DNA of 64,000 nt from a virus (lineage: Duplodnaviria > Caudoviricetes). Shown here one piece after another: positions 47,736 through 60,820 of this stretch. The stretch is taken from IMG/VR virus record IMGVR_UViG_2930248008_000005, positions 1 to 64,000 of that record, one strand, 5' to 3'. The notes under the pieces were generated by a model, which did not search any database, was not told where the DNA came from, and was given only the letters and a program-made list of their open reading frames with translations. Each line of letters opens with the position of its first letter. Within the stretch, counting starts at the first letter, position 1. Both the position numbers and the translations under genes were made by a program.

Positions 47736-47812
47736 CCGTGCGCTGATGGTGCTCGCCCGGCTTCGGCCGGGCGGGTGCCACCGCCGCACGGCGGAGGAAG
47801 TGAGGCGCTGAG

Positions 47813-48169
47813 ATGGCGCGGATTACCGACGAGATGGTCAGCGAGATGAACGACCGGATCGCGCAGGCCCCGACGACCGCGCAGGCGTTCCGGCTTGCGA
47901 TGGGCGTCAGCGACAGGATGCTGTGGCTGCTGCTCGACCTGAACCACATCAACCAGGACGAGGTCGGGTTGGGCAGGGGTGGGCGCGAGGCACTCGCGGT
48001 GGAGGCGCACGGCTGGCACCTGTACTACCGGGACGACGACACGCCGGCTGACGGGTACGGTCCGTGCGAGCTGGGCGGGTTCGAGGCGCACAGCCTGCGG
48101 CCGTGGGAGTGCCGGGGATGCAAGCGGCGCCCCATTGACCACCGGCGGGTGCCGGTGGCCGTGCGCTGA
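47813..48169 (+). CDS. Array gene, hypothetical with Cys/His C-terminus
   Basis: Between repeats; ends at the internal TGA of the repeat. Confidence 0.75.
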   Translation: MARITDEMVSEMNDRIAQAPTTAQAFRLAMGVSDRMLWLLLDLNHINQDEVGLGRGGREALAVEAHGWHLYYRDDDTPADGYGPCELGGFEAHSLRPWECRGCKRRPIDHRRVPVAVR

Positions 48170-48235
48170 TGATCCTGGCCGGGCGCGAGTCCGGCCGGGG
48201 TCACCGCTGCATGGCGGAGGAAGTGAGGGCTGACC

Positions 48236-48526
48236 ATGCGGTACGTGATGGTGACCGCCACCGCTCTGGCAGCGATGCTGCCGGAGCAATACGAGCAGTG
48301 CAAGAACGACGATCGGTGGACCCTGGTCACCTCGACCGAGGAGACGTGCGCCACGGTCGGGCGCCGCGAGAAGGTGACGCACGTGGTCACCTGGGGTCCG
48401 CCGGACGGCAGGACCAGAGAGGGGTGCTGCGACGAGTGCGCCGGGTCCTACTCCCGACGGCCAGCGCTGGCCGCGCAGGTGCTCTGCATCTGGGCGGGCT
48501 GGGGCTGCACGCACGCGCAGCTCTAA
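48236..48526 (+). CDS. Array gene, Cys-rich hypothetical
   Basis: Between repeats. Confidence 0.75.
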   Translation: MRYVMVTATALAAMLPEQYEQCKNDDRWTLVTSTEETCATVGRREKVTHVVTWGPPDGRTREGCCDECAGSYSRRPALAAQVLCIWAGWGCTHAQL

Positions 48527-48605
48527 CCGTGTGCTGATAGTGGCGGCCGGGCCGAGGGTCCGGCCGCTGCCACCACCGCACGGGTGGAGAGAGGCAGGGC
48601 GGATC

Positions 48606-49202
48606 ATGCCGCGCACCATCACGACCACGCGCACCGTGTTCAAGTTCGAGGAGTTGAGCGAGGACGCGCAGCAGCGGGCGGTTGAGCGGATCGCCGAGAA
48701 GATGGCGACGACCTGGTGGGACCAGCACGACAACGACGACATCGGCGCGACCATCGTCTACAAGATGGCCGAGAAGCTGCGCACGCGGGGCTGGGACACC
48801 TTCGGGGAGGGAGACTTCCCCGGAATCCCCGGGGTCGAGCTGGTCGAGTGGGACCTGGGGCGCGGGCAGGCGGTCAGCTTCAAGGGAGCGCTGGACCGTG
48901 AGAACGCCCCCGCGCTGCCCTGGGCCGATGGAGTCGAGGCCGTAACCCTCGGCGGCATCCCGGGCTACGGCATCGGCCAGTCCGTCTACGTCGAGACAGA
49001 CGGCGAGGCCGAGACCGACGAGGAGGTGGCGCGGGTCGGCGCGGCGGCGGAGGCGATGAAGAGCGCCGTCGAGGATGCCATCCACGCCGCCTGGCAGGCA
49101 GGCAAGGAGCAGGAGGAGTGGAAGGGCGGCGAGGAGCGCGCCCGCGACTGGATCGAGGCGAACGAGCCCGAGTTCGACGAGTCAGGCAACCTCGACCACT
49201 GA
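48606..49202 (+). CDS. Array gene, acidic phage protein (FEELSEDAQQRA...NEPEFDESG family)
   Basis: Between repeats; recurrent phage early-protein motifs. Confidence 0.8.
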   Translation: MPRTITTTRTVFKFEELSEDAQQRAVERIAEKMATTWWDQHDNDDIGATIVYKMAEKLRTRGWDTFGEGDFPGIPGVELVEWDLGRGQAVSFKGALDRENAPALPWADGVEAVTLGGIPGYGIGQSVYVETDGEAETDEEVARVGAAAEAMKSAVEDAIHAAWQAGKEQEEWKGGEERARDWIEANEPEFDESGNLDH

Positions 49203-49282
49203 CCGTGCGCTGACGGTGGCCGCCGGGCCGATGGTCCGGCGGCTGCCACCTCCGCACGGGAGGGGAAAGCAGGGGTAGGCAC

Positions 49283-49612
49283 ATGATCATCAACCTGGAG
49301 TCGCCGCAACGGCAGGCGTCGACCTACACGCCGGGCACCGTTCAGGACGCGGCAGAGCGCGAGCTGCGCATCATGCTGGAGGAGTTGCGCGACGAGGGCA
49401 AGGTCGAGCAGTACGGCCGGGAGCTGCGCCGGGCGGTGGTCTTCACGAGGGCCGGCAATGGTCCGACCTGCCTGGTGGTGTTCCTCATGGACTCCGACGG
49501 CGACCCGATGTCGGCGTTCGTGGACTACAGCGAGCGGCACGACGCCGCCATGCCGGTCCCGGAGCCGTACGTCCAGGAGCTGTACGACGCACTGCGCGCC
49601 TACGGGCGCTGA
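49283..49612 (+). CDS. Array gene, hypothetical
   Basis: Between repeats. Confidence 0.8.
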   Translation: MIINLESPQRQASTYTPGTVQDAAERELRIMLEELRDEGKVEQYGRELRRAVVFTRAGNGPTCLVVFLMDSDGDPMSAFVDYSERHDAAMPVPEPYVQELYDALRAYGR

Positions 49613-49692
49613 CCGCGCGCTGATGGTGGTGCACCGACCCCGGGTCGGTGCGCTGCCACCACCGCACGGGTGGAGAGAGGCAGGGCCGACCA

Positions 49693-49938
49693 ATGGCCGA
49701 CAGCGTGGAGAATTGCACGGAATGGGTCCGCAAGTGGGTGCTCAACGACCCCTCGGAGATCCTGTTCGAGGCGCAGCGACACGCCCGGCGCAGCCCGGAG
49801 GACCTGGAGGAGTTCATCGTCGGGGTGCTGCGCGCACCGAAGGAGGGTACGGCGGCGTGGTACACGCGCCGCGAGCTGTCCGACGTGGAGCTGGAGACCA
49901 GGATCGACTGGTCCGCGTTGGCCGACGACATCCTGTGA
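49693..49938 (+). CDS. Array gene, acidic hypothetical
   Basis: Between repeats; W..ND...IDWSALA motif. Confidence 0.8.
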   Translation: MADSVENCTEWVRKWVLNDPSEILFEAQRHARRSPEDLEEFIVGVLRAPKEGTAAWYTRRELSDVELETRIDWSALADDIL

Positions 49939-50019
49939 CCACGCACTGATGGTGGCGCACCGCCCCCCGAGGTCGGTGCGCTGCCACCACCGCGTGGTGG
50001 AGGGAGTGAGGGCAACATT

Positions 50020-50733
50020 ATGGGCCGCACCTTCGTCGAAATCGGCGAGGCGACTTACCGCGGACGGCACCCACTGCCGCACCAGTCGCGGCAGATCCGC
50101 CGCGACCTGCACGGGGAGGACATCCTCATGAACCCGGGCGCGGAGGCGCGCGGGTACCGACTCACGGCCGAGCAGATCGAGGACCGGCGACAGGGCCGGA
50201 CGCCTCGGGCCGAAGCGCCGTACGAGTTCCTGATCTACTTCCCGGGTCGGCCGTCGCTCAACTGGACGGCGTTCTACAGCCGGGCCGAGCTGGACGCCTG
50301 GCTGGACGCCTACGCGCTGACCCTGGACGGCGACCCGGAGCCCGGCGGGTATTTCGAGGTCCGCCTGCCGGCGACGGACGCCGACTGGCAGCCGGCGACC
50401 CTGGCGACGGCGTTCGAGACACTGGACGACCTGCGCCGGATGGGCGCGGCCATCCAGTGGAAGGGGACGCGGCACCTGGTCGGGCAGTGGAGCGCCACGC
50501 ACGACGATGGCAAGCTGACCAGCGCCAGCGTCTGGAGCAAGACCGAGCGGCGGTGGTTGACGCTGGTCGAGCCGCGCGGCCTGCCGATCCCGGAGCATCA
50601 GCGGTGCGCGGCGACGCACCCGGACTTCCCAGAGATGCGCTGTGAGCGCCACGTACACCCCGACACCCCGAACTACCCGAACCACGTGACCGAGCACCAG
50701 AACGGGCTCAACAAGTGGGAGTCCTGGCACTGA
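50020..50733 (+). CDS. Array gene, hypothetical
   Basis: Between repeats. Confidence 0.8.
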   Translation: MGRTFVEIGEATYRGRHPLPHQSRQIRRDLHGEDILMNPGAEARGYRLTAEQIEDRRQGRTPRAEAPYEFLIYFPGRPSLNWTAFYSRAELDAWLDAYALTLDGDPEPGGYFEVRLPATDADWQPATLATAFETLDDLRRMGAAIQWKGTRHLVGQWSATHDDGKLTSASVWSKTERRWLTLVEPRGLPIPEHQRCAATHPDFPEMRCERHVHPDTPNYPNHVTEHQNGLNKWESWH

Positions 50734-50812
50734 CCGTGTGCCGATGGTGGCGGCCGGGCTTGCGCCCGGCCGCGCGCCACCTGCCACACGGGCAGGAGAA
50801 AGCGAGGCAGCG

Positions 50813-51070
50813 ATGGACAGCAAGACGATCCAGGAGGCATACACCGGGCGGGAGGAGGCCACCATGGACCGCGTGGTGCGCTTCCTGCGGGACAACTACG
50901 GCCACTCGGACGGCTCCCCGCTCACCGAGGAGCGCCTGCTGGAGCTGACGATCAAGCACGCCGACGTCATCCGGACCGCGATCACCCTGGGCTCGTTCGC
51001 CTACTACCCGGGCGACAAGATCGCCGCCGCAGAGAGGCTGGAGTACATCGGTCCCGACGACGAAGGCTGA
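50813..51070 (+). CDS. Array gene, hypothetical
   Basis: Between repeats. Confidence 0.8.
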   Translation: MDSKTIQEAYTGREEATMDRVVRFLRDNYGHSDGSPLTEERLLELTIKHADVIRTAITLGSFAYYPGDKIAAAERLEYIGPDDEG

Positions 51071-51146
51071 CCGCGCATGGACGGTGGCCGCCGGGTTCGC
51101 CCGGCGGCTCGCCGCCCGTCGCACGGACGGGAGAGATGAGGGCGAC

Positions 51147-51566
51147 ATGCGTAAGCCGACGTACGACGACCTGATGACGGCCCGGGGTGACCGGATCGAC
51201 CCGGAGGGGGTCTTCGACATCCTGCGCGATCTCCAGCGGACGGCAGCCGCCGCTGAGGCAGAGGAGGAGCCCGAGGACTTGGACTTGCTCGACCGGATCG
51301 AGTCGGTGAAGGCGCTGATCGAGGGACTGAACGGGACCGGCCTCGGCGCGGCGTACATCGCCGACCACCGGTGCACCCTGATCGCCGCCGACTACTTCGA
51401 GGAGTTCGCCCGCGACGAGGTCGAGGACACCTCGGGCATCCACCGCGACCACCCGGTGCTGTCGCACGTCAACTGGGCGGACTTCGCGGACGCGCTGCGC
51501 CAGGACTACAAACCCGTGACGGTCGAGCTGGGCGAGTTCGCCGGCACGTGGTGGGTGCGCGGCTGA
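51147..51566 (+). CDS. Acidic protein resembling the ArdA antirestriction C-terminal region
   Basis: FEEFARDEVEDTSGI...VLSHVNWADFADALRQDY resembles ArdA FAEEL...YIDYEA.ARDL. Confidence 0.55.
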   Translation: MRKPTYDDLMTARGDRIDPEGVFDILRDLQRTAAAAEAEEEPEDLDLLDRIESVKALIEGLNGTGLGAAYIADHRCTLIAADYFEEFARDEVEDTSGIHRDHPVLSHVNWADFADALRQDYKPVTVELGEFAGTWWVRG

Positions 51567-51647
51567 TCGTGCGGCTAATGGTGGTCGCCGGGCCGAGGTC
51601 CGGCGGCACGCCACCTGTCGCACGGACAGGAGGAAGGGAGGATCGAC

Positions 51648-51947
51648 ATGGAGCTGATCGACACTCGGCGCGAGTTCGTGGCCTTGGCCCGGCGGCTCGG
51701 AGTGCGACCGGACTGGCACGAGCCGGACGAGCGGGAGGTGGCCGCCCGCGTGCAGGGCAGCCACCTGGACAACGCGATGGGCGCAACCGGCGAGTGCGGC
51801 GAGCTGCGCGTGATCTTCTCGCAGGACGGCGAGGACATCGCAGCGGTCAATCTGGCGAACCTGTGCGCCTGGGCGAGTGTGCCCGCCGACGAGGTGGCGG
51901 AGCGCGAGCGAGCCGAGGAGCAGATGTACGGGCGGGAGCGCGCCTGA
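51648..51947 (+). CDS. Array gene, conserved actinophage hypothetical (LGVRPDWHEPDE)
   Basis: Between repeats. Confidence 0.8.
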   Translation: MELIDTRREFVALARRLGVRPDWHEPDEREVAARVQGSHLDNAMGATGECGELRVIFSQDGEDIAAVNLANLCAWASVPADEVAERERAEEQMYGRERA

Positions 51948-52029
51948 TCGTGCACTGACGGTGCTGGCCGGACCGCGAGGTCCGGCCGGTGCCGCCCGCT
52001 GCACGGCGGGAGGATGCGAGGTCGGGACG

Positions 52030-52221
52030 GTGCCGGAGAAGACCTACGGCGAGCACAGCGCCGAGATGCGCGAGAAGTACGGAGAGGGTCTGACTGAAGC
52101 CCAGCACAACAAGGTGTACGCCTTTGCCTACGAGCGGGGGCACGCCTTCGGGTACAGCGAGGTCGAGAGCCACTACGAGGAGGTAGCCGAGTTGGCCCGA
52201 GGGCTGCTGGGGATCGACTGA
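52030..52221 (+). CDS. Array gene, 63 aa (AYERGHAFGYSEV family)
   Basis: Between repeats. Confidence 0.75.
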   Translation: MPEKTYGEHSAEMREKYGEGLTEAQHNKVYAFAYERGHAFGYSEVESHYEEVAELARGLLGID

Positions 52222-52297
52222 CGTACGCCGACGGTGCCACGCGGGCCGCAGGGTCCGCGCGGTGCCGCCCGCGCACGGCGGGAGAATGAGGGCACTC

Positions 52298-52777
52298 GTG
52301 GACGAGAAGTTTCACAGCAGGCACCTGGGCCACGACATCTACCGGAAGCACGGGACGGGCTACTTCACGGTGTGGCTCTCCGGTAAGGGCAACCGGGTAG
52401 CGGACACGCTGGACGGCGCGCACGAGTGGGTGCGCGAGCACCTGACCGAAGAGATGCGGAAGGCCATTGACGCCGCCCGGGGGCGCGGACTGGCGACGAT
52501 GGCCCGCGAGGAGATCGAGAGCCACGCGCGGCACTCGCTGTTCTTCGTGCGGGTCGCCGACGACCTGGCCGCCGGGAGGGTGGCGGTCAACGAGTTCTAC
52601 GTCTACGCGACCCGAGACGGCGACCGCCTGGAGGCGACGCTCGGGGCGTACAGCAGGGGTGCCGACGAGGCGATCGAGCTGGCGCAACGCGAGGGCGTTT
52701 ACGCCGACGAGGTGTGGGTGCTGGCGGGCCACGCCGGTGCCTGGTGTGAGGTGGAGCCTCGTCAGGGCATCGCCTGA
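52298..52777 (+). CDS. Array gene, hypothetical; start 52286 or 52298
   Basis: Between repeats. Confidence 0.75.
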   Translation: MDEKFHSRHLGHDIYRKHGTGYFTVWLSGKGNRVADTLDGAHEWVREHLTEEMRKAIDAARGRGLATMAREEIESHARHSLFFVRVADDLAAGRVAVNEFYVYATRDGDRLEATLGAYSRGADEAIELAQREGVYADEVWVLAGHAGAWCEVEPRQGIA

Positions 52778-52856
52778 CCGCGCGCTGATGGTGGTGCCCG
52801 GCCGCGTGCCGGGCACTCGCCACCTCCGCGTGGGAGGAGAGAGACGAGGTAGCACC

Positions 52857-53327
52857 ATGACCATGCCGCTGACCCGGGGTGGCGTCATGCCGATCCCGGT
52901 CCCGACGACCATCAACCACCTCGTGGTGATGGGGGCCATGCCCGTCCAGGCGCGCCACGGCGAGCGCTGCCACCAGTGGGTCGTGATGTGCCACGACCCG
53001 GAGCGACCGGCGGGGCGCGACTACGTCACCTGGCGGGTCGGCTGCGACGGGCCGGGAGACCACTACGGCGCGTTCGTCGCCTTCGAGGGTGAGTACGACC
53101 TGAGCGAGGATCGGGCTCTGCGGAGCATGGTCAAGCGGGCCAAGTTCCGGCCGGTCCGAGAGGGCGAGATCACGGAGGGCGAGGAGGCCCTGGCGGCGGT
53201 GCTCGACATGGTCGCCCGGGTGCGCAACTCCCCCGACTGCGAGGAGATCACCGTCGAGGACGTGCGGGAGCTGGTACCGCACAGCGTCTTCAAGCTGCTC
53301 TGTCCGTTCCGGGTGGAGGGCGACTGA
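52857..53327 (+). CDS. Array gene, hypothetical
   Basis: Between repeats. Confidence 0.8.
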   Translation: MTMPLTRGGVMPIPVPTTINHLVVMGAMPVQARHGERCHQWVVMCHDPERPAGRDYVTWRVGCDGPGDHYGAFVAFEGEYDLSEDRALRSMVKRAKFRPVREGEITEGEEALAAVLDMVARVRNSPDCEEITVEDVRELVPHSVFKLLCPFRVEGD

Positions 53328-53409
53328 TCCGTGCGCGAACGGTGCTCGCCGGGCCGAGGTCCGGCGGGATGCCGCCCGTCGCACGGACGGGAGGAAGCGA
53401 GGCTCGACC

Positions 53410-53706
53410 ATGAGCGACGACGAGTACGTGAACCACACCTACACCTTCGACGCACCGGCCACCGTGACGCTGCACGTCGAGGCGGACAGCGAGCAAGAGG
53501 CGTGGGCCAAGGTGCGGGCGGCGCTCGGGGCGGAGAACCCCGACATCGAGTTCGCCCCCGGGGTGATCGTGCACGAGCTGGCAATCGGCGAGGCCCACGT
53601 GGACTGGAGCGTGGCCGAGGTGGCCCTGTCCAGCGGGCCGGCGGACACCGAGGACGACGGCGGGGACGACCCGGACGACGAGGTCGACCACGACTCCACG
53701 CGCTGA
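53410..53706 (+). CDS. Array gene, very acidic hypothetical
   Basis: Between repeats; ends at the internal TGA. Confidence 0.8.
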   Translation: MSDDEYVNHTYTFDAPATVTLHVEADSEQEAWAKVRAALGAENPDIEFAPGVIVHELAIGEAHVDWSVAEVALSSGPADTEDDGGDDPDDEVDHDSTR

Positions 53707-53770
53707 TGGTGCTGGCCGGGTGCTGCCCGGCCGGTGCCACCGCCGCGTGGCGGAGAAAGGCAGGGAAGCG

Positions 53771-54298
53771 GTGACTTCCTACAGCATCTACTACCCGCAG
53801 TCCGACGACCCGCAGGAGGTGTGGCGGTCGCGGGTGGAGACCTTCCTGAGCGGCGCCGCCCGAAGCTTCCTCGACACGGCCGAGGTCGTCACCGAGGAGG
53901 AGGACCCTGCCGAGACGGAGGAGGCGTACGCCGTGTGGTGGCACTCCGAGCGGCGGGGCTGGGAACTGGACGCGATCCACCCGGACGACCGGCCGCGGTT
54001 CGTCAAGCGGCTCGGAGACTTCGCGGGCGAGAACCCGGGCGACCTGGCCCTGGTGGTCAACCAGATCCTGGAGGACGCGCGTCGGCTCGGGCACGCCTAC
54101 GTCCACGACGTCGACACCGCCTGGTACCGGGCGGGCGAGCTGTACATCTACAACTCGCAAGGCCAGGGCATCGGGCTCTGGGAGCACGGCGACGCCGGCA
54201 AGCGACTGAGCGAGCGCATCGGCTACCACCCGGTGCGCGGGTTCACCTACCCGCCGGGCGACGAGCGCGGCCGATACGTGCAGATCGAGGAAATCTGA
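53771..54298 (+). CDS. Array gene, hypothetical
   Basis: Between repeats. Confidence 0.8.
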   Translation: MTSYSIYYPQSDDPQEVWRSRVETFLSGAARSFLDTAEVVTEEEDPAETEEAYAVWWHSERRGWELDAIHPDDRPRFVKRLGDFAGENPGDLALVVNQILEDARRLGHAYVHDVDTAWYRAGELYIYNSQGQGIGLWEHGDAGKRLSERIGYHPVRGFTYPPGDERGRYVQIEEI

Positions 54299-54378
54299 CC
54301 GTGCGCTGACGGTGGGGCATCCGGTGCGGCCGGGTGCCCGCGCCACCACTGCATGGGTGGAGGAAGAGAGGGCCGGTC

Positions 54379-54771
54379 ATGGCCAACCTGTTCAGCTTCG
54401 TCGCCGAGATTCGCCGAATGGCGACCGATGGTGACCTGGCCCGCCTGGCGATGCCGGGGGTCAGGCTTTCGCAGATCAACAGGCTCAGCCTCAGCGGTAC
54501 GTCGTACCTCGCCGAGGTTCGTGACGAGCTGGCCGACTTCGTTGAGGAGCACGGCCGACTCCCGCGCGAGGCGGAGCCGGACGAGATTGCCGCAGCCCCG
54601 CTGGGCACCCGCGACGACGCCCACGTATGGGCGCTGTTCGTCGGGCTGGGCGGCTGGCTCGATGAGGACGCGCCGAACCGCTCTCTGACCACCGACGGGG
54701 CCACCCGCACGCTGGAGGGCATCGGGCGGCGGCTGGTCTACGCCCTGCTCGAACAGGCAGAGGAAGCCTGA
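54379..54771 (+). CDS. Array gene, hypothetical
   Basis: Between repeats. Confidence 0.8.
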   Translation: MANLFSFVAEIRRMATDGDLARLAMPGVRLSQINRLSLSGTSYLAEVRDELADFVEEHGRLPREAEPDEIAAAPLGTRDDAHVWALFVGLGGWLDEDAPNRSLTTDGATRTLEGIGRRLVYALLEQAEEA

Positions 54772-54863
54772 ACGCTCCCCGCTCGGGTGATGGTGGCCGC
54801 CGGACTCCAGCCCGGCGGCGCGCCACCGTCGAGCGAACAACTGGACGGAGAGGGAGCCGAGAG

Positions 54864-55325
54864 ATGGGCAACAACATTGCGGACCGGCGCGACGTGGCGG
54901 TGCTGACGGTTCGCGGCCGAGGCTTCCGCGTGGAGCGGATTGCCTGGAAGAACAGCGACGGTCTGTCGTTCGACGTGCACGACGTGGCGACGGGCGTCTG
55001 CCTGACGGCCGAGTCGTACGACTGGCAGCCGCGCGAGGGTGACGTGGTGGAGTTGCTGGACCGCCTCAAGAGCGGCCTGGAGGACGGGACGCTCGACCCG
55101 CTCGACCACGACAGAGCCGAGCTGGCCACGGTGCTCGGCATCGAGTTGCTGCACGAGGGCGACGAGGACGGCGGCGACGACGAGGGAGGCGCGGACGGGC
55201 GCGAGGTGAACTGGCAGTGCCCGGGGTGCTTTGCCGTCTTCTACGTCGGTGAGGAAGACCTGGCGGTCGACCACGTGCAGATTCACTGCGACAAGGTCGA
55301 CGGCGCGGGTCGGGCGCTGAGCTGA
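54864..55325 (+). CDS. Array gene, acidic with C2H2-like finger
   Basis: CPGC...H...H motif; between repeats. Confidence 0.8.
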   Translation: MGNNIADRRDVAVLTVRGRGFRVERIAWKNSDGLSFDVHDVATGVCLTAESYDWQPREGDVVELLDRLKSGLEDGTLDPLDHDRAELATVLGIELLHEGDEDGGDDEGGADGREVNWQCPGCFAVFYVGEEDLAVDHVQIHCDKVDGAGRALS

Positions 55326-55410
55326 CCGTACGAGTGATGGTGGCCGCCGGGCTGAGGTTCGGCGGCGCGCCACCGTCGAGCGGATGACTGACACGGAGAG
55401 AGGGCCAACG

Positions 55411-55686
55411 ATGAAGACGCCGCCGAGGGCTCGGCAGGAGACCGCCGAGGAGATGCGGAGGCACGGCTACACACAGGGTGCGGTCGACGGCATCCTGCAC
55501 ATCCGCAGCCTGGACGACGAACAGGTCCTCGCGGCAGCACGGAGCGTCGACAGCGACGCTCACAAGGCGATCCTCGCGCGCATGGGTCCCCGTACCAACC
55601 CGTTCTGGATCACCGGTGCGTGCGCGGAGGAGGCGTACCTGCGCGGGCTGATTGACGAACGGGAGTTCGATCACCTCAGCGACTGA
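55411..55686 (+). CDS. Array gene, hypothetical
   Basis: Between repeats. Confidence 0.75.
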   Translation: MKTPPRARQETAEEMRRHGYTQGAVDGILHIRSLDDEQVLAAARSVDSDAHKAILARMGPRTNPFWITGACAEEAYLRGLIDEREFDHLSD

Positions 55687-55771
55687 GCACCCCGCTCGGG
55701 TGATGGTGGCGCACCGGCTTCGGTCGGTGCGCTCGCCACCTGTCGAGCGGCAGGAGGAAGTGAGGACGATC

Positions 55772-56245
55772 GTGAACGGGCGGGACATCCGGAGGACGGG
55801 GGTCGGCTACCTGGCCGACGGCTACTTCTCGGCAGCCGAGGTCGGCGAGGAGAACATCTGCGACCACGTGACCGTCGGCGAGGACGACGGCGGACGTATC
55901 CCGGTCACCATGGTCGAGATCATCCGCTGGTCGGAGTTCGAGATCGGGCCGTGGGCGAGAGCGACGGTGCGCCAGCTCGACGCGGTGAAGCGGACGATCT
56001 GCGTCAACTACGGCGCGGCCGGGGTCAACCACCGGGACGAGGACTTCACCGGCGACGGGCTGCTGGAGGTCGAGTGGGTGGCGTGGGCCGAGGGGCACAA
56101 GCCCCTCGGCGAGGTGCTGGATTTCATCCGGAGGATCGTCCCCGAGGGGCCGGTCGGCTTCCACAACAACTCCAACGGAGCGTACGGAGCGACCGGCAAC
56201 GTGGTCCGGGAGGTCCGCGAGGCCGTAGCTGCGGTGGAGGGCTGA
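55772..56245 (+). CDS. Array gene, hypothetical
   Basis: Starts after a repeat. Confidence 0.8.
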   Translation: MNGRDIRRTGVGYLADGYFSAAEVGEENICDHVTVGEDDGGRIPVTMVEIIRWSEFEIGPWARATVRQLDAVKRTICVNYGAAGVNHRDEDFTGDGLLEVEWVAWAEGHKPLGEVLDFIRRIVPEGPVGFHNNSNGAYGATGNVVREVREAVAAVEG

Positions 56246-56248
56246 GCG

Positions 56249-56590
56249 GTGGACGCGCTCACGCCGGCATACGAGATCGAGCACCCGCGCGGATGGCGGC
56301 GGCTGTACCGGATGCCCAACGGACTCGGCGCGTCGGTCATCCCCCGCCAGCCAGCGATCCCCGGATACGCGGCTGGCACCGTGGACGTACTGGTCGTCGA
56401 GTGGACCGGGAACGACCCAGACGACCACATCGAGCACCTGCCCAAGGACTGGCAGGTGGTCGAGGACTTCGTGCGAGCGGTCGACAGTCAGGGGGGTGAT
56501 GTCTACTACGGCAACGGCGGATGCGAGTTGCAATGCGTCCCGGAGCACGAGCTGCTCGGGCTGCTGACGCTGATCTCGCGAATGCCCTGA
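56249..56590 (+). CDS. Array gene, second gene of a two-gene unit (PNGLGASVI motif)
   Basis: GGAGG RBS inside the upstream gene; no repeat at this junction. Confidence 0.75.
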   Translation: MDALTPAYEIEHPRGWRRLYRMPNGLGASVIPRQPAIPGYAAGTVDVLVVEWTGNDPDDHIEHLPKDWQVVEDFVRAVDSQGGDVYYGNGGCELQCVPEHELLGLLTLISRMP

Positions 56591-56666
56591 TCGTGCGCTG
56601 ATGGTGGCGCGCCGGGGTGACCGGCGCGCTCGCCACCGCCGCACGGGCGGAGAGGCGAGGTGCAAG

Positions 56667-56990
56667 GTGAGCGACAGGAAGACGGAGATTCAGGTCGGGC
56701 TGCCTGAGCAGGAGGCGCGGCGGCCCGAGTCGGGCTACGGCCTGAGCCTGATCGCCGACGGTGTGAGCTGGCAGGGGACGAAGGCCACGATCATCGAGAA
56801 GGCGATCAGTGACATGCTGCGCCACGACTACGACGGCGCGGTGGAGGACGTTGTGGTCTACGAGGAGGGTCCGACTAGCAGAACGGTCACCCGGATCAGC
56901 GGCGACGTGGTCGAGGTCAACAGCCTGAGGCTCACGTTCGCCGGTGGCCGCGAGGTCGAGCTGGACGGCATCCTCGCGATCCACTTCTGA
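56667..56990 (+). CDS. Array gene, hypothetical
   Basis: Between repeats. Confidence 0.8.
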   Translation: MSDRKTEIQVGLPEQEARRPESGYGLSLIADGVSWQGTKATIIEKAISDMLRHDYDGAVEDVVVYEEGPTSRTVTRISGDVVEVNSLRLTFAGGREVELDGILAIHF

Positions 56991-57065
56991 CGTGCGCTGA
57001 TGGTGGCCGCCGAGCATGGCTCGGCGGCGCGCCACCGCCGCACGGCGGAGAGGTGAGGTGACGAA

Positions 57066-57500
57066 GTGAAGATCAGCGAGTACATGGCGGCGGGAACGGC
57101 CGAGCGCGCGAAGGCACGGGCGGCGCTGAGCCGGCGGGTCAACAACGGGACGCGGCGACTGCGGCGCATGACCGAGGTCGAAATCGCCGATGCCGCCAGG
57201 GCGCGCTTCCCCGAGGCCGTCAAGGTGCGCGTGTCGGTGGATGAGGGCGACGACGTGTGGTGCATGGCGGCAGGGATCTACGGGCCGCGCGGCAGGCGGC
57301 TGGTCCTGGAGGACTACGACCTCAACCCCCAGCTCGACCGCACCATCCAGGACCTGGTCGAGGAAGCCTGGGAGGAGGGCGGCAAGGACGACTGGCCCCA
57401 CATCGACCGCGAGGACGACGAGGACTACCCCGACAGCTTCGACGTGCGCGAAATCCGACTGCCCCGGCGGCCGAGTGGCGCAGGGCTGACGGAGGGCTGA
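57066..57500 (+). CDS. Array gene, hypothetical
   Basis: Between repeats. Confidence 0.8.
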   Translation: MKISEYMAAGTAERAKARAALSRRVNNGTRRLRRMTEVEIADAARARFPEAVKVRVSVDEGDDVWCMAAGIYGPRGRRLVLEDYDLNPQLDRTIQDLVEEAWEEGGKDDWPHIDREDDEDYPDSFDVREIRLPRRPSGAGLTEG

Positions 57501-57578
57501 ACCGTACGGGAGATGGTGCCGGCCGGGTGACGCCCGGCCGGTCGCCACCGCCGCACGGGCGGAGGAAGTGAGGCGGAG

Positions 57579-57992
57579 ATGGATGACAGGGAGTTCCTGT
57601 TCGACGCGGCGGTGACGGCGACCTTCGCGGTGACCGCACCGACGCTGCTCGATGCGGCGGCCAAGGTCCGCGAGATCCAGGAAGCCGACCCGGACGACCT
57701 CGACGACGGCGTGCTGCTGCGCTCGCTGTCCTGGGGCATCCAGGTCGACGGTGAGCTGGTCCAGGTAATCGACGGGGGCATGAGCGATCCGGTCACCCTC
57801 GACCGGATGAGCGACCCGGCCACGCGGGGAGAAGATGTCGACCCCGAGCGGCTGGTCGCTGCCATCGGCGAATACCGCGCCGCGCTACGGACGGGCCGGG
57901 TGGACGCGGAGGCGGGCGCGCTGCGGCTGCTGGCCAACCTGGCGCTGGAGCGATGGCCGGAGGTCGCAGAGCGACTGCCGGACGGGCTCTGA
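57579..57992 (+). CDS. Array gene, acidic hypothetical
   Basis: Between repeats. Confidence 0.8.
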   Translation: MDDREFLFDAAVTATFAVTAPTLLDAAAKVREIQEADPDDLDDGVLLRSLSWGIQVDGELVQVIDGGMSDPVTLDRMSDPATRGEDVDPERLVAAIGEYRAALRTGRVDAEAGALRLLANLALERWPEVAERLPDGL

Positions 57993-58073
57993 TCGTGCGG
58001 GTGATGGTGGTGCGCCGGGCTGCGGCTCGGCGCGCTCGCCACCGTGGCACGACGGAGGAATGGAGGGCGGAGC

Positions 58074-58310
58074 GTGGCGGAGAGGTTCGGGCCGCTGAAT
58101 GCGGCTCAGGAGCGAACGCTGGAGCATTACGAGGCGCTCGGGAGCGTGCAGACGTGGTACGCCGGCCGAGTGCGGGATGACGACTCGGTGGAGGTCGTGG
58201 GTCTGGGCGAGGACTTCATCTGGGCGCTGGTCATCGAGCACGACGGCGAGGTGGCCACCTACGAGGCGCACATCGATCCAAAAACCTGGCAGACCGGCAT
58301 CACCTGCTGA
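58074..58310 (+). CDS. Array gene, hypothetical
   Basis: Between repeats. Confidence 0.75.
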   Translation: MAERFGPLNAAQERTLEHYEALGSVQTWYAGRVRDDDSVEVVGLGEDFIWALVIEHDGEVATYEAHIDPKTWQTGITC

Positions 58311-58391
58311 CCGTGTGCTGACGGTGCGGCATCGGGCGAAGGTCCGGTGCGGCGCCGCCCGCCGCACGGACGGGAGGAAGCGAGGAGTCTG

Positions 58392-58859
58392 ATGGAGATG
58401 TACACGGTCGTCGGGGTGTGGCTGAACAATGCGCCGCTCGCGGTCGCCTCGCTGGGCCGCCCGACCCGCACCGACTGGGCCGGCGGCCTGACCGATGCCT
58501 TCCCCAGTGAGTTTCCGCAGGGATCGTGGGTGGAGCTGGTCCTTGCCGACTCGCACGATGCGGCGCAGCGGCGGGCCGAGGAGCTGATGCGGGCGAACGA
58601 CGAGAGCGGCGACGACGGCCAGGAGGGCGACGCGGGCGACGACGAGGGTGACGAGGACGGCCACTCCGCTGGCGACGGCTGCGGCATCTACGACACGGGC
58701 TATTGGGTCGAGACCGATGACGGCGGCTGTGCGGTCGAGGACCTGGAGGTGGGCGACGTCTTCGAGGACCGCGCTTACCCGGGTGACCGCTGGATCGCCA
58801 GCGAGGTCGTGGTCGTGGGCGACGACGTGCACGTTGACGTCGAGCGAGCCGACGACTGA
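58392..58859 (+). CDS. Array gene, very acidic hypothetical
   Basis: Between repeats. Confidence 0.8.
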   Translation: MEMYTVVGVWLNNAPLAVASLGRPTRTDWAGGLTDAFPSEFPQGSWVELVLADSHDAAQRRAEELMRANDESGDDGQEGDAGDDEGDEDGHSAGDGCGIYDTGYWVETDDGGCAVEDLEVGDVFEDRAYPGDRWIASEVVVVGDDVHVDVERADD

Positions 58860-58946
58860 TCCACCGCGCGCTGACGGTGACGGCCGGGCTACGAGCCCGG
58901 CCGGTCGCCGCCCGCCGCGCGGCGGGAGAAGGTGAGGATGGGATCG

Positions 58947-59330
58947 ATGGCGGTTCCGAGTGCGGATGAGCTGGACCGGATGTCGGACGACGAGCTGTTG
59001 GCGGCATTGAGGGCCTACCAGGACGCATACGACCGGCGGACGGAGAGCAAGTTGCTGCGGGTCGTCACAGAACAACTGGCGGCCTCCGGCGAGCTGGAGG
59101 CCGACGAGGAGCCGATCAAGGTCCTGTTCGACCCCTACAACTACCCCAACGGCTGGTACTACAAGGAGCGCAGCGCCCGGGTCTACCTCAAGGGCGATGA
59201 GGAGCCGTTCCTGTTCGACTTCGAGGGCGATGAGGTCAGCGGCCTGCTCGGCACGCTGAGCTACGAGGCCGGGGAGAAAACGGAATTGGTCGTCAACCTG
59301 GTTGACGGCACGGTCGACCACCTGGGATGA
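58947..59330 (+). CDS. Array gene, acidic hypothetical
   Basis: Between repeats. Confidence 0.8.
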   Translation: MAVPSADELDRMSDDELLAALRAYQDAYDRRTESKLLRVVTEQLAASGELEADEEPIKVLFDPYNYPNGWYYKERSARVYLKGDEEPFLFDFEGDEVSGLLGTLSYEAGEKTELVVNLVDGTVDHLG

Positions 59331-59411
59331 CCGCGCACTGACGGTGGCCGCCGGGCTTCGGGTCCGGCGGCTCGCCGCCTGCCGCGCGGCAGGAGAAAGG
59401 AGCGCCGAAGG

Positions 59412-59645
59412 ATGGCGCAGGCAAGCACGATCGAGTACGCGATCAGCCGGGACGGCGGCGAGACCTTCACGGTCCTGGAAGCGGGGGTGCCGTCGGAGCG
59501 GTTCACTCCGATCGTCGAACGGATCACCACGAACCGGAACACCCAGCCCGAGCTGAACAACGACGCCCTGCTGATCCGCGACCTCGACTCTCGGACCGTC
59601 TGGCGCCTGCGGGCCGAGGGAGCCGCACTGCCCGCCGCTTCGTGA
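59412..59645 (+). CDS. Array gene, hypothetical
   Basis: Between repeats; ends at the internal TGA. Confidence 0.75.
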   Translation: MAQASTIEYAISRDGGETFTVLEAGVPSERFTPIVERITTNRNTQPELNNDALLIRDLDSRTVWRLRAEGAALPAAS

Positions 59646-59710
59646 TGGTGGGGCACCGGCCGCCGCCGGTGCCCTCGCCACCTCCGAGCGGAGGAGAGAG
59701 TGAGGACGAC

Positions 59711-60118
59711 ATGGGAGCCTTGTCCGACCTGGAGATCGTCCTGCGGGGCCTGCGGTGCCTCCAGCCGGAAGAACTGGCCGACCTGGCCCCGATGGCCGGC
59801 ACGGGTCGCCCGAGCGGGCCGGAGACGCCCGGGGCGCACTACCTGGCGAGCCTGCGCGACGTGCTGGCCGACAAGATCGAGAGAGACGGCGGTGCGCCGG
59901 ATCCCGAGCTGGTGCCGGCGACGGTCAGCGTCTGGGACGTGGTTCCGGATGGGCGCACCGCCTGGGACACCTTCCTCGACCTGGAGGCGTTCCACACCGA
60001 CCACGCGCGCAAGCACCACCTGACGACAGACGGCGTGCGCATCGTGCTCGAACTGATCGGGTGCGACTTCTGGCGGGAACTGCTCACCGCCCACGTGCCG
60101 GAGCGGTTCTACCTCTGA
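59711..60118 (+). CDS. Array gene, hypothetical
   Basis: Between a family A and a family B repeat. Confidence 0.8.
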   Translation: MGALSDLEIVLRGLRCLQPEELADLAPMAGTGRPSGPETPGAHYLASLRDVLADKIERDGGAPDPELVPATVSVWDVVPDGRTAWDTFLDLEAFHTDHARKHHLTTDGVRIVLELIGCDFWRELLTAHVPERFYL

Positions 60119-60194
60119 CCTGACCGCTTCCGCCGCGCCTCGAACTGCCGGGGCGCGTGCGGTGGCCGCCAGGGCCAAGATGGAGGAGATGAAC

Positions 60195-60494
60195 GTGAAG
60201 CTGACGTTCGAGTGGGACGTGGCAGAACAGCACAAGCTGGAGATCGAGCTGGACGACCTGTTCGACTGGCTGGTCCGGGAGGGCGTGCTCGACAAGAACG
60301 ACCCGCGAACCCTGGAGACGCTCCAGGAGGTCTACAACGACACATGCGAAATCGAGAAGTTGCTGTGGATCTCGCAGGGCAAGGACACCGTCGTCCGTCG
60401 CGGCGTGAGAGGACTGACCTCCCACCCGTTCGAGACGCCGGAGCCCCGGGCGGAGCACCCGCACGACCACGGCGACTACAGCGACGTGCAGTGA
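60195..60494 (+). CDS. Array gene, acidic hypothetical; start 60189 or 60195
   Basis: Between family B repeats. Confidence 0.75.
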   Translation: MKLTFEWDVAEQHKLEIELDDLFDWLVREGVLDKNDPRTLETLQEVYNDTCEIEKLLWISQGKDTVVRRGVRGLTSHPFETPEPRAEHPHDHGDYSDVQ

Positions 60495-60568
60495 TCGCCT
60501 GACCGCTTCCGTCCGGCCCGCCTGACGCGGGCCGGGCAGTGGCCGCCAGGCCAGGACGAGGAGGAGAG

Positions 60569-60745
60569 ATGGACGAGCAGCAGCCGGAGGAGCCCGCCAA
60601 GCTGGACCACCAGCAGCTCATGAACATGCTGCGTGACAAGGCCGCAGAGCACGGCTGGTCGGTCGACTGGAGCTTCAAGGGCGACCAGTACGGCAACGGC
60701 GACCAGGAATACCAGGTCTGGTTCACGCCGACGAGCAGCACCTGA
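60569..60745 (+). CDS. Array gene, 58 aa hypothetical
   Basis: Between family B repeats. Confidence 0.75.
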   Translation: MDEQQPEEPAKLDHQQLMNMLRDKAAEHGWSVDWSFKGDQYGNGDQEYQVWFTPTSST

Positions 60746-60820
60746 CCGCTTCCGCCGCGCCCCGGGAACCGTGCGCCCCGGGGCGTGCGCGGTGGCCGCC
60801 AGGGCCAAGATGGAGGAGAA

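What the first reader, a model, noticed from the sequence alone, without database searches (positions are those of the whole stretch)
48524..59710. Family A element covaries in three helices and implies a pseudoknot or two-state switch on the mRNA strand
Seen, helix P1 (5' arm just after the stop / 3' arm): CCGTGC/GCACGG usually, but CCACGC/GCGTGG (49936, 53691), CCGTGT/ACACGG (50731), CGCTCG/CGAGCG (54769, 55684), CCGCGC/GCGCGG (58857, 59328), TCGTGC/GCACGA (57990), CCGTACGG/CCGTGCGG (63410). Helix P2: TGGTG/YGCCA becomes CGGTG/YGCCG in eight copies and TGATC/GGTCA at 47089 and 48156; it closes a sequence-variable GC hairpin. Helix P3: the 3' arm of P1 sits in the loop of a further covarying hairpin (CCTGCC/GGCAGG, CCTCC/GGAGG, CCACC/GGTGG, CCCGTC/GACGGG, CCTGTC/GACAGG) that abuts the purine-rich RBS. 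Deviations are often G-T on the + strand, which favours folding of the sense strand. Inference: P1 and P3 form a pseudoknot or compete. A ribosome terminating on the upstream TGA would cover the P1 5' arm, giving a serial translation-coupling relay. Alternatives are a nuclease processing or blocking structure, a protein-binding site, or a new self-cleaving ribozyme.
Basis: partly seen in the sequence, partly recalled or inferred. Interest (0 to 1): 0.85.

Follow-up and report, generated by a model that had tools for sequence, protein, structure and literature searches.

The report
Folded RNA spacer between prophage genes
A prophage of a Micromonospora-type bacterium separates about forty small early genes with the same roughly 85-base spacer, which runs from one gene's stop codon to the next gene's ribosome site and can fold in two competing ways; it is a clear new RNA family of a kind already seen between early genes of other phages.

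Summary
The window is part of a 95-kb provirus record. It has 37 family A copies, and the record has 39, all on the + strand at 43.1-64.6 kb. Each copy fills the gap between a stop codon and the next ribosome-binding site.

All three helices covary. P1+P2+apical stem are 94% paired against 79% in shuffles (0/500). P3 is fully paired in 118 of 122 distinct copies. Non-Watson-Crick pairs are G-T on the + strand 297 times and A-C 46 times, so the sense strand folds.

Arrays of the same family occur in a Micromonospora maritima prophage and in a group of metagenomic viral contigs. Rfam has no match.

P1 and P3 compete. The two predicted folds differ by about 4 kcal/mol, and blocking the P1 5' arm makes P3 form. 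The switch does not change predicted RBS exposure, so the coupling relay is not supported as stated.

My best reading (about 0.4) is an RNase III-type processing and stability signal: a 7-bp stem, a roughly 4x4 internal loop and an upper stem of 13 or more bp. P3 would cap the downstream cistron. No RNA data exist.

The elements are also the junctions at which gene cassettes are gained and lost. This scan has already found similar modules in other phages, so I class it as a new variant of a known kind.

The parts
42766..64000 (+). Array of about 45 small same-strand genes. It continues to about 89 kb of the record. Family A elements fill most gene junctions from 43.1 to 64.6 kb.
   Evidence: Gene calls by third-position GC of 0.85-0.97. 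No sigma-70-like site in 40500-60400.
43133..43233 (+). Family A copy 1
   Evidence: R1 54.6 bits
43609..43733 (+). Family A copy 2, with an enlarged apical hairpin
   Evidence: R1 45.2 bits
44085..44181 (+). Family A copy 3
   Evidence: R1 81.0 bits
44533..44629 (+). Family A copy 4
   Evidence: R1 74.1 bits
44795..44890 (+). Family A copy 5
   Evidence: R1 66.5 bits
45443..45539 (+). Family A copy 6
   Evidence: R1 68.7 bits
45954..46055 (+). Family A copy 7
   Evidence: R1 55.7 bits
46419..46515 (+). Family A copy 8 (internal-loop variant CACC)
   Evidence: R1 69.9 bits
46864..46962 (+). Family A copy 9 (internal-loop variant CACC)
   Evidence: R1 67.7 bits
47077..47171 (+). Family A copy 10 (P2 variant TGATC/GGTCA)
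   Evidence: R1 79.5 bits
47721..47815 (+). Family A copy 11, used as the exemplar. Stop 47733-47735; P1 5' 47736-47742; loop CTGA 47743-47746; P2 5' 47747-47751; apical hairpin 47752-47775; P2 3' 47776-47780; P3 5' 47781-47784; P1 3' 47785-47791; P3 3' 47791-47794; purine tract and SD 47795-47812; ATG 47813.
   Evidence: R1 81.7 bits. MFE -47.6 kcal/mol, z -5.0. Sequence read.
48144..48238 (+). Family A copy 12. The upstream gene stops at the internal-loop TGA (48167).
   Evidence: R1 70.6 bits; stop position
48512..48608 (+). Family A copy 13 (TAA stop)
   Evidence: R1 74.8 bits
49188..49285 (+). Family A copy 14
   Evidence: R1 78.1 bits
49598..49695 (+). Family A copy 15
   Evidence: R1 69.5 bits
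49924..50022 (+). Family A copy 16 (P1 CCACGC/GCGTGG)
   Evidence: R1 61.3 bits
50719..50815 (+). Family A copy 17 (P1 CCGTGTG/CACACGG)
   Evidence: R1 83.2 bits
51056..51149 (+). Family A copy 18
   Evidence: R1 69.8 bits
51552..51650 (+). Family A copy 19
   Evidence: R1 78.0 bits
51933..52032 (+). Family A copy 20
   Evidence: R1 66.9 bits
52207..52300 (+). Family A copy 21
   Evidence: R1 47.7 bits
52763..52859 (+). Family A copy 22
   Evidence: R1 76.8 bits
53313..53412 (+). Family A copy 23
   Evidence: R1 70.5 bits
53680..53773 (+). Family A copy 24. The upstream gene stops at the internal-loop TGA (53704).
   Evidence: R1 65.8 bits
54284..54381 (+). Family A copy 25
   Evidence: R1 69.5 bits
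54764..54866 (+). Family A copy 26 (P1 CGCTCG/CGAGCG; enlarged P3 loop)
   Evidence: R1 55.3 bits
55311..55413 (+). Family A copy 27
   Evidence: R1 66.2 bits
55677..55774 (+). Family A copy 28 (P1 CGCTCG/CGAGCG)
   Evidence: R1 68.6 bits
56576..56669 (+). Family A copy 29
   Evidence: R1 68.2 bits
56976..57068 (+). Family A copy 30
   Evidence: R1 67.3 bits
57486..57581 (+). Family A copy 31
   Evidence: R1 68.7 bits
57978..58076 (+). Family A copy 32 (P1 TCGTGC/GCACGA)
   Evidence: R1 66.8 bits
58296..58394 (+). Family A copy 33
   Evidence: R1 70.9 bits
58849..58949 (+). Family A copy 34 (P1 CCGCGC/GCGCGG)
   Evidence: R1 71.3 bits
59316..59414 (+). Family A copy 35
   Evidence: R1 78.5 bits
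59620..59713 (+). Family A copy 36. The upstream gene stops at the internal-loop TGA (59643).
   Evidence: R1 59.6 bits
63398..63494 (+). Family A copy 37. Two more copies follow just beyond the window, at record positions 64006-64092 and 64516-64613.
   Evidence: R1 66.6 bits; L176 hits of 48.0 and 44.3 bits

Best explanation
Family A is a cis-acting element of the sense-strand mRNA. It replaces the whole spacer between cistrons of one very long prophage early operon.

Ground state: one irregular hairpin. It has a 7-bp lower stem P1 that starts right after the stop codon. Next comes an internal loop of about 4x4 nt, usually ending in UGA on its 5' side. Then comes a 5-bp P2 with a near-invariant U.G pair, and a GC-rich apical stem of free sequence.

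Most likely role (inferred): a signal for a host double-strand endoribonuclease of the RNase III type. That enzyme would cut the long transcript into single-gene pieces at or beside the internal loop.

Second state: when P1 is lost, through cutting or through a ribosome terminating on its 5' arm, the freed 3' half snaps into the small hairpin P3. This leaves a structured 5' end on the downstream cistron and keeps its C-rich strand away from the purine-rich ribosome site.

At the DNA level, the repeated modules are also the points at which relatives gain, lose and reorder gene cassettes.

Shown here: the three helices, the folding strand, the two near-isoenergetic folds, the fixed position relative to stop and RBS, and cassette indels at the modules. 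Inferred: the enzyme, the cut, and the capping role of P3.
For: Structure and strand:
- Covariation of P1, P2 and the apical stem.
- Covariation of P3.
- G-T 297 against A-C 46 on the + strand.

RNase III-like geometry:
- The internal loop is 4x4 in 49, 5x4 in 38 and 4x5 in 29 of 122 distinct copies.
- The lower stem is 7 bp and the upper stem 13-15 bp. Folds are -45 to -48 kcal/mol with z of -3.1 to -5.0.
- E. coli RNase III cuts five signals in the T7 polycistronic early precursor, and single-strand cuts leave stabilising hairpins (PMC3867540, passages seen).
- The apical stem is free in sequence and ranges from 21 to 50 nt.

One long transcript is plausible:
- No promoter-like site in 40500-60400, and no + strand terminator-like site at any element.
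- Promoter-like tandem repeats lie upstream of the first gene.

P3 as the fold after loss of P1:
- It forms in nearly all copies once the P1 5' arm is blocked.
- It recovers all but about 4 kcal/mol in each of three lineages.

Not RBS gating: predicted RBS exposure is 0.47 against 0.50.

Cassette junctions:
- Both array indels between two 94-98% identical contigs (2 of 2) begin and end inside elements.
- The window's array and the M. maritima array share about 15 of 39 and 30 genes respectively, in mosaic order.
Against: - No RNA ends, no cleavage assay and no expression data exist for this element.
- RNase III does not require the stop codon to abut the stem. Yet 83 of 122 copies have it within 0-2 nt of P1, 20 use the internal-loop UGA, and none lies further downstream. 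That pattern points to a link with termination.
- Family B in the same operon uses another sequence but the same topology: a stop-adjacent 5' arm complementary to the loop of a small hairpin before the RBS. Its lower stem is only about 5 bp, often with a mismatch. This is a poor RNase III stem, and it suggests that the arm-loop contact itself is what is selected.
- Cutting on both sides of the loop would leave the upstream cistron without a 3' hairpin.
- The conserved U.G pair and the UGA are not explained by this reading.
Confidence: 0.4

Rival explanations
1. Termination-linked switch or pseudoknot. The contact between the stop-adjacent P1 5' arm and the loop of the pre-RBS hairpin P3 holds the stop codon next to the following ribosome site. 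A terminating ribosome melts P1, P3 forms, and the ribosome or its small subunit is handed to the next start. This would give serial coupling along the operon.
For: - Stop codons sit within 0-2 nt of P1 in 83 of 122 copies and at the internal-loop UGA in 20. None is further downstream and none is more than 11 nt upstream. 116 of 119 are TGA.
- P1 pairing is kept even where its 5' arm is coding.
- The two folds are near-isoenergetic in three lineages.
- Family B repeats the same topology with another sequence, including compensatory CTGAC/GTCAG and CTGGC/GCCAG combinations.
- By my own geometric reasoning, a 6-7-nt loop that is fully paired is sterically possible, as in kissing loops. This is recalled knowledge, not tested here.
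Against: - Predicted exposure of the RBS and start codon does not change between the two states.
- Every gene has its own purine-rich Shine-Dalgarno region.
- Several junctions in the same array use plain overlap or a 3-nt gap without any element, for example 56243/56249 and 61537/61540.
- I know of no described bacterial precedent for such a relay. This is recall; my five literature searches were not aimed at this question.
- The large apical hairpin has no role in this model.
Confidence: 0.3
2. Binding site on the mRNA for a phage or host protein, such as a global translational repressor or activator, or an antitermination or chaperone factor. All genes of the array would then be controlled together.
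For: - Several unpaired or non-canonical positions are conserved. The 5' side of the loop ends in TGA in 96 of 122 copies and in GA in 112 of 122. A U.G pair is kept in 116 of 123. CC follows P2.
- Sequence is conserved across three lineages whose shared proteins are only 42-76% identical.
Against: - No candidate partner was found. Of 72 non-array proteins, none matched an RNA-binding or ribonuclease Pfam family.
- Only one array protein family is shared by all three lineages, and it has no Pfam match.
- Protein binding does not by itself call for the P1/P3 alternative.
Confidence: 0.1
3. Primarily a DNA-level recombination module. The repeats exist because they let the phage swap gene cassettes, by relaxed homologous recombination as with T4-type PeSLs or by a site-specific enzyme acting on folded single strands as with integron attC sites. 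On this view the RNA fold is secondary.
For: - 2 of 2 array indels between near-identical contigs have both ends in elements.
- Gene content differs in a mosaic way between the window and the M. maritima prophage.
- In orthologous pairs the apical hairpin can differ while P3 and the RBS tail stay with the downstream gene. This implies breakpoints inside the element.
- There is a precedent in PMC2839356 (abstract and section 13 read).
Against: - Homologous recombination needs identity, not compensatory pairing. Three covarying helices and a 297:46 excess of G-T over A-C on the sense strand show selection on a folded + strand.
- P3 reaches towards the RBS.
- The only tyrosine recombinase lies at 611-1774, 41 kb from the head of the array.
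- attC sites fold on the bottom strand (recalled); here the top strand folds.
Confidence: 0.08
4. Transcription attenuators. Each GC hairpin would stop RNA polymerase that has not been modified at the leader, which would silence the array in the lysogen. Polymerase starting at the tandem promoters would read through.
For: - A strong hairpin lies right after each stop codon.
- PeSL stem-loops act as terminators (PMC2839356).
- A host intergenic palindrome of similar sequence lies between convergent genes.
- A first-stage note reports a boxA-like leader. I did not test this.
Against: - No U-tract follows any element. The terminator scan found none at the elements on the + strand.
- The model does not explain P1/P3 covariation or the conserved internal loop.
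Confidence: 0.07
5. A new class of self-cleaving ribozyme that separates the cistrons.
For: Pseudoknot-capable topology, conserved unpaired nucleotides, and an intergenic position in a phage.
Against: - No Rfam ribozyme family matches, even at E up to 1.
- The CUGAUGG stretch lacks the partner strand of a hammerhead core, as read from the sequence.
- Very few positions are invariant.
Confidence: 0.03

Closest known systems
RNase III processing signals between early genes of phage T7 (five sites in the ~7,000-nt precursor) and of Bacillus phage SP82, and the S. coelicolor rpsO-pnp intergenic hairpin
   Same: - Repeated irregular hairpins between cistrons of a long early transcript.
- A lower stem, an internal loop and an upper stem.
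- In Streptomyces, the cuts flank a [4/4] internal loop.
- Hairpins left at the ends act as stability determinants.
Sources: PMC3867540, PMC10126417, PMC4838370, which cites Panganiban and Whiteley 1983.
   Different: - No sequence relationship, and no Rfam match.
- 39 copies rather than 3-10.
- The stop codon is fixed at the foot of the stem.
- A third covarying helix encloses the 3' arm of the lower stem.
- Cleavage has not been shown.
PeSL (promoter-early stem-loop) cassettes of T4-type phages RB49 and phi1 (Arbiol et al. 2010, PMC2839356)
   Same: - Modules run from the stop codon of one gene to the Shine-Dalgarno sequence and start of the next.
- They are concentrated among small genes of unknown function.
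- About 50 occur per genome.
- Recombination between modules shuffles genes.
- Here, cassette indels also end inside elements.
   Different: - PeSLs carry a sigma-70 promoter. Here, no promoter-like site lies in 20 kb.
- PeSL stem-loops act as terminators and vary in position.
- Here the fold has three covarying helices in fixed register and no U-tract.
[quoted passage not shown] 2011, PMC3203893)
   Same: - Actinobacteriophage repeats in one orientation.
- Confined to the non-structural half of the genome.
- Located just upstream of start codons.
- ESAS consists of imperfect inverted repeats around a variable spacer.
   Different: - The authors state that departures in the two ESAS arms do not support RNA pairing, and they favour DNA-binding sites. 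Here compensatory changes are abundant.
- The 13-bp SAS consensus is absent: 1 match with 2 mismatches, against 2.1 expected by chance.
Integron attC sites and bacterial REP/REPIN repeats
   Same: - Imperfect palindromes with conserved outer boxes and a variable centre.
- They separate promoter-less same-strand genes (attC) or lie in operon spacers (REP).
   Different: - There is no integron-type integrase beside the array. The single tyrosine recombinase is at 611-1774.
- The ends are not of the GTTRRRY type, as read from the sequence.
- The folding strand is the sense strand.
- In the M. maritima genome the hairpin-bearing matches lie only in the prophage.
- No Y1 transposase family appears among the Pfam hits.

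Membership tests
RNase III processing signals of phage early mRNAs (T7, SP82 type) | Lies between cistrons of a long polycistronic early transcript | tested here: met
   Each copy lies between a stop codon and the next start. No promoter-like site in 40500-60400. The existence of a single transcript is itself inferred.
RNase III processing signals of phage early mRNAs (T7, SP82 type) | Irregular hairpin of about two helical turns with an internal loop | tested here: met
   7-bp P1, a 4-6 x 4-5 internal loop and a 13-15-bp upper stem.
RNase III processing signals of phage early mRNAs (T7, SP82 type) | Cut by RNase III in vivo or in vitro | not testable with these tools
   No RNA run is listed for this DNA.
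PeSL cassettes of T4-type phages | Strong sigma-70-like early promoter inside the module | tested here: not met
   0 promoter-like sites in 40500-60400, against 0.8 expected by chance. The scan covers sigma-70-type consensus only.
PeSL cassettes of T4-type phages | Recombination between modules creates gene-sized insertions and deletions | tested here: met
   2 of 2 array indels between L333 and L334 have both ends inside elements.
Cluster K SAS/ESAS | 13-bp SAS consensus 3-8 bp before start codons | tested here: not met
   1 match with 2 mismatches in the window, inside an apical hairpin. 2.1 expected by chance.
Cluster K SAS/ESAS | Inverted repeats whose departures do not preserve pairing (read by the authors as DNA sites) | tested here: not met
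   Here 16 of 18 pairs show changes on both sides and 94% of cells pair.
Integron attC array | Integron integrase and attI at the head of the array | tested here: not met
   The only Phage_integrase hit among 72 non-array proteins is at 611-1774. The array begins at 42766.
Integron attC array | Folding of the bottom strand with conserved R/L boxes (GTTRRRY) | tested here: not met
   G-T 297 against A-C 46 favours the top strand. The outer boxes are CCGTGCG/CGCACGG. The attC consensus is recalled, not taken from a call.
REP/REPIN genome-wide repeats | Dispersed through the host chromosome with a RAYT transposase | tested here: not met
   In the M. maritima genome, 30 of 31 R1 matches lie at contig 3, 533.5-548.8 kb. 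However, only 150 of about 30,100 first-look candidates were scored. Of the 100 pattern places listed, the 20 with a GC hairpin lie in that same stretch.
Known self-cleaving ribozymes and other Rfam families | Match to a curated covariance model | tested here: not met
   0 matches at gathering score over the whole window. In 47000-52000, only sub-threshold matches to two microRNA hairpin models and one Burkholderia sRNA model (22-34 bits against gathering scores of 59-79).
tRNA-like punctuation | tRNA or tmRNA-like fold | tested here: not met
   ARAGORN finds 0 genes in the window.

The most novel reading that the evidence does not exclude
The element, together with its look-alike family B, is a standard plug-in adapter for cistrons, and its working part is the contact between the stop-codon-adjacent arm and the loop of a hairpin just before the next ribosome site. 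Each terminating ribosome breaks that contact and is passed across the looped-out hairpin to the next start. This would be a bacterial counterpart of ribosome shunting or termination-reinitiation, chained about 60 times along one 46-kb operon. It would also travel with gene cassettes as they are swapped.
Probability: 0.25. Interest if true: 0.85.

Novelty: new variant of a known kind. Interest (0 to 1): 0.6.

Why it matters
- It adds a well-supported structured RNA family that is absent from Rfam. There are about 120 distinct copies in three phage lineages, and each of three helices has compensatory changes.
- It is a natural example of a standard, portable stop-to-start connector. Such a connector lets a phage express any newly acquired small gene from one long operon.
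- Two competing folds are placed exactly where a ribosome terminates. This makes it a tractable system for asking whether bacteria and their phages use RNA switches to punctuate or couple cistrons.
- A related prophage sits in a named culture-collection strain, M. maritima JCM 17013, so the question can be tested at the bench.
- The finding also supports a pattern seen repeatedly in this scan: early-gene arrays of unrelated phages use repeated folded spacers that double as recombination joints.

Tried and rejected
RNA evidence. The look-up of sequencing runs listed no RNA holder. It listed one DNA run, which may be the source of this DNA.

Phage database. blastn of window 48001-56000 against the phage collection found no match.

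Loose pattern scans.
- a 16-mer in viral contigs gave 52 single matches. Only 6 loci proved real by nhmmer.
Only L221 proved real.

tRNA-like, hammerhead-like and K-turn readings of the CUGAUGG stretch. Rejected because ARAGORN and Rfam give nothing and the partner strand lacks the required GA or GAAA (read from the sequence; the motif definitions are recalled).

A small ORF starting at the ATG of CTGATGG. Rejected because its frame relative to the next start varies and many copies have ACG there.

Strand choice from folding energy alone. Not informative, because both strands fold well. The G-T against A-C count was used instead.

Column-wise counting of P3. Not possible, because the arm register shifts with arm length. 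I used an alignment-free test with permutation.

A partner protein. Pfam and PHROGs scans of 72 non-array and 47 array proteins gave no RNA-binding or nuclease candidate.

A weak model match in the host chromosome (G001 C13:141350). It is a plain palindrome between genes, and Rfam finds nothing there.

Pseudoknot against switch. This could not be decided. No tool here folds pseudoknots or RNA in three dimensions.

Supplementary files of the cited papers were not opened. ESAS alignments in the supplements of PMC3203893 and PMC12699233 could bear on the comparison.

Full report
Where the window lies. The window is the first 64 kb of a 95,389-base IMG/VR provirus record. It is about 70% G+C.
- Third-position GC gives clear gene calls. 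Minus-strand virion genes lie at about 8.8-40.7 kb. Among them are matches to major capsid E, SPP1-type portal, small terminase and tail families.
- A gene-poor stretch lies at 40.8-42.7 kb.
- From 42766 onward there is an unbroken run of small plus-strand genes.
- A tyrosine integrase is at 611-1774.
- The flank at 37.5-41.3 kb is 78-90% identical to a prophage in Micromonospora maritima JCM 17013. The host is therefore probably a Micromonospora relative.

The observation. A profile built from 29 hand-picked copies finds 39 copies in the record, all on the + strand between 43139 and 64604. Nothing comparable lies elsewhere. Each copy fills one gene junction. Read 5' to 3', a copy consists of:
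- the stop codon;
- P1 5' arm (consensus CCGTGCG);
- four to six loop bases, usually ending in TGA;
- P2 5' arm (TGGTG);
- a GC-rich apical hairpin of free sequence;
- P2 3' arm (YGCCA);
- CC plus two or three variable bases (P3 5' arm);
- P1 3' arm (CGCACGG);
- the complement of the variable bases plus GG (P3 3' arm);
- a purine-rich tract with the Shine-Dalgarno sequence;
- the start codon.

Is it more than chance?
- On a MAFFT alignment of 36 window copies, made without reference to any structure, P1+P2 are 95.8% paired against 89.2% in column shuffles (0/500). Nine of 12 pairs change on both sides. Sliding the partners by 1-3 columns gives 20-58%.
- I built covariance model R1 and aligned 150 matches from the window, the rest of the record and three other sources. 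On 126 distinct rows, 94.0% of cells pair against 78.9% (0/500). Sixteen of 18 pairs change on both sides. Slid controls give 28-48%. That alignment is fitted to the model and leans towards the structure. The MAFFT result does not carry this caveat.
- P3 shifts register with arm length, so I tested it without columns. The whole 5' arm pairs with a downstream segment in 36/39, 30/30 and 52/53 distinct copies of the three lineages. Permuting partners within a lineage gives means of 12.8, 11.3 and 23.8 and never more than 22, 18 and 35 in 2000 trials.
- At least twelve arm combinations occur, among them CCGC/GCGG, CCGG/CCGG, CCTGC/GCAGG, CCTC/GAGG, CCAC/GTGG, CCCGT/ACGGG and CCTGT/ACAGG.
- The copies are paralogues and orthologues, so the counts are not independent events. 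The number of pair types and the slid controls are the better guides.

Which strand folds. At paired positions there are 297 G-T cells and 46 A-C cells on the + strand. Leaving out one near-invariant U.G pair in P2 (116 of 123), the count is 181 against 46. All 15 wobble pairs in P3 are G-T on the + strand. A symmetric DNA site or a minus-strand fold would not give this bias. Folding energies alone do not separate the strands.

Relatives. The model finds arrays in several other sources, all in the sense orientation:
- about 30 copies in the M. maritima prophage;
- 24-31 copies in each of three metagenomic viral contigs, which are close to one another, and in a 141-kb metagenome contig;
- a single copy between two genes of an unrelated provirus.
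A sub-type in the metagenomic group changes P1 to CCTGCG/CGCAGG, P2 to GGGTG/CGCCT and P3 to CCGG/CCGG, and keeps all three helices. Rfam has no match at gathering score, and only sub-threshold matches to two microRNA hairpin models and one sRNA model at E up to 1. In the M. maritima genome the hairpin-bearing matches are confined to the prophage, with the caveat that the first look scored only 150 of about 30,100 candidates.

Position relative to translation. In 122 distinct copies the upstream gene stops within 0-2 nt of P1 in 83. It stops at the TGA of the internal loop in 20, and 4-11 nt further upstream in 15. It never stops further downstream. One further own-lineage call, 83 nt downstream, I take to be a wrong frame choice by the script, and three copies gave no call. 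Of 119 stops, 116 are TGA. P1 pairing is kept even where its 5' arm is coding. Some junctions in the array have no element and use overlap or a 3-nt gap.

Two folds. P1 and P3 cannot both be drawn as nested helices, because the P1 3' arm is the P3 loop.
- With the P1 5' arm free, most copies fold as one long hairpin. With it blocked, as under a terminating ribosome, P3 forms in nearly all.
- The two states differ by -4.0, -4.2 and -3.8 kcal/mol on average in the three lineages.
- The predicted unpaired probability of the RBS (0.47 against 0.50) and of the start codon (0.53 against 0.49) does not change.
- By my own geometric reasoning, a fully paired 6-7-nt loop is possible, as in kissing complexes. 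A pseudoknot is therefore not excluded. Nothing here can test it.

What it most likely does. The ground-state hairpin has a 7-bp lower stem, an internal loop and a 13-15-bp upper stem. The loop is 4x4 in 49 copies, 5x4 in 38 and 4x5 in 29 of 122.
- This is the layout of the best-mapped actinobacterial RNase III mRNA site. In the S. coelicolor rpsO-pnp intergenic hairpin, the enzyme cuts on both sides of a [4/4] internal loop (PMC10126417, passages).
- It is also the general layout of the intercistronic RNase III signals of T7 (PMC3867540, passages) and of SP82 (cited in PMC4838370).
- The 20 kb examined holds no promoter-like site and no terminator-like site at the elements, so one long transcript is plausible.
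- On this reading P3 is the fold of the freed 3' half. It gives the downstream cistron a structured 5' end. The same review notes that Streptomyces RNase J prefers 5'-monophosphate ends.
I put this reading at about 0.4. The main rival, at about 0.3, is that the contact between the stop-adjacent arm and the hairpin loop is itself the working part and couples termination to the next initiation. In its favour are the stop-codon positions and the fact that family B repeats the same topology with another sequence and only a weak lower stem.

DNA-level behaviour.
- Two metagenomic contigs that are 94-98% identical differ in the array by two gene-plus-element units, and both indels begin and end inside elements.
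- The window's array and the M. maritima array share about 15 genes at 42-76% protein identity, interleaved with lineage-specific genes and with some changes of order.
- In orthologous pairs, P3 and the RBS tail tend to stay with the downstream gene while the apical hairpin can differ.
- This matches what was shown for the PeSL cassettes of T4-type phages (PMC2839356, abstract and section 13).
- Of the 47 array proteins scanned, three match a Pfam family (four models, two of them for one acetyltransferase domain) and nine PHROG families of unknown function are matched by one protein each.

Comparison with what is known.
- The nearest described actinophage repeats, SAS/ESAS of Cluster K, differ on the key point. 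Their authors found no support for RNA pairing, and the SAS consensus is absent here.
- PeSLs carry promoters; these elements do not.
- T7 and SP82 signals share the layout and the likely role, but they lack the third helix and the fixed stop codon.
- Follow-up reports of this scan describe comparable stop-to-RBS folded modules in several other uncultured phages, with the same closest relatives named. The kind is therefore recurrent. What is new here is the three-helix, two-state architecture, the copy number, the host group and a new RNA family.

Verdict. The element is a new variant of a known kind. Interest is 0.6.

Noticed in passing
window 60116-62500, and record positions 66150-89330: A second element family (B) has about 22 copies. 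Its layout is CTGAC-CGCTTC, a variable hairpin, then TGGCC-GCCAG-GGCCA, then the RBS. The 5' CTGAC or CTGGC is complementary to the loop GTCAG or GCCAG of the small hairpin, which is the same topology as P1/P3 of family A. The commonest combination, CTGAC with GCCAG, has one A-C mismatch.
   Followed up: partly
window 41420-41780: Three near-identical tandem units of about 91 bp. Each has TTGACA, a GAGGAT-like box and a CCCCCGGG...CCGGGGG hairpin. They lie upstream of the array and are probably stacked early promoters.
   Followed up: no
window 41790-41825: The stretch GTTGTTTGTTGAGAACTCAAGAGC follows the tandem units. From memory it resembles the conserved antitermination leader of actinobacterial rRNA operons, and a first-stage note says the same. 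I did not test it here.
   Followed up: no
window 41830-42730: About 900 bases with lower G+C (0.64-0.66), no convincing ORF and many local inverted repeats, lying between the promoters and the first array gene.
   Followed up: no
L345 1860-1920 (G001 contig 13, about 141350-141425): A host intergenic perfect palindrome, CCGTGCGGTGGTG...CACCACCGCACG, resembles the P1+P2 arms of family A but lacks the internal loop. It may be chance, or it may hint at the origin of the element in host terminator-like hairpins.
   Followed up: partly
L335 3281-3400, minus strand (G004): A single family A copy lies between a lipoprotein-like gene and the next gene of an otherwise unrelated 49.8-kb provirus. The module therefore also occurs singly.
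   Followed up: partly
window 48606-49199: This 198-aa protein has no Pfam match. It is the only array gene with homologues (38-46% identity) in all three element-bearing lineages.
   Followed up: partly
record positions 77332-79128 and 81725-84031: Large plus-strand proteins with DUF2637 and a weak FtsK/SpoIIIE match lie next to DUF932. These families are more usual in actinomycete conjugative elements than in phages.
   Followed up: no
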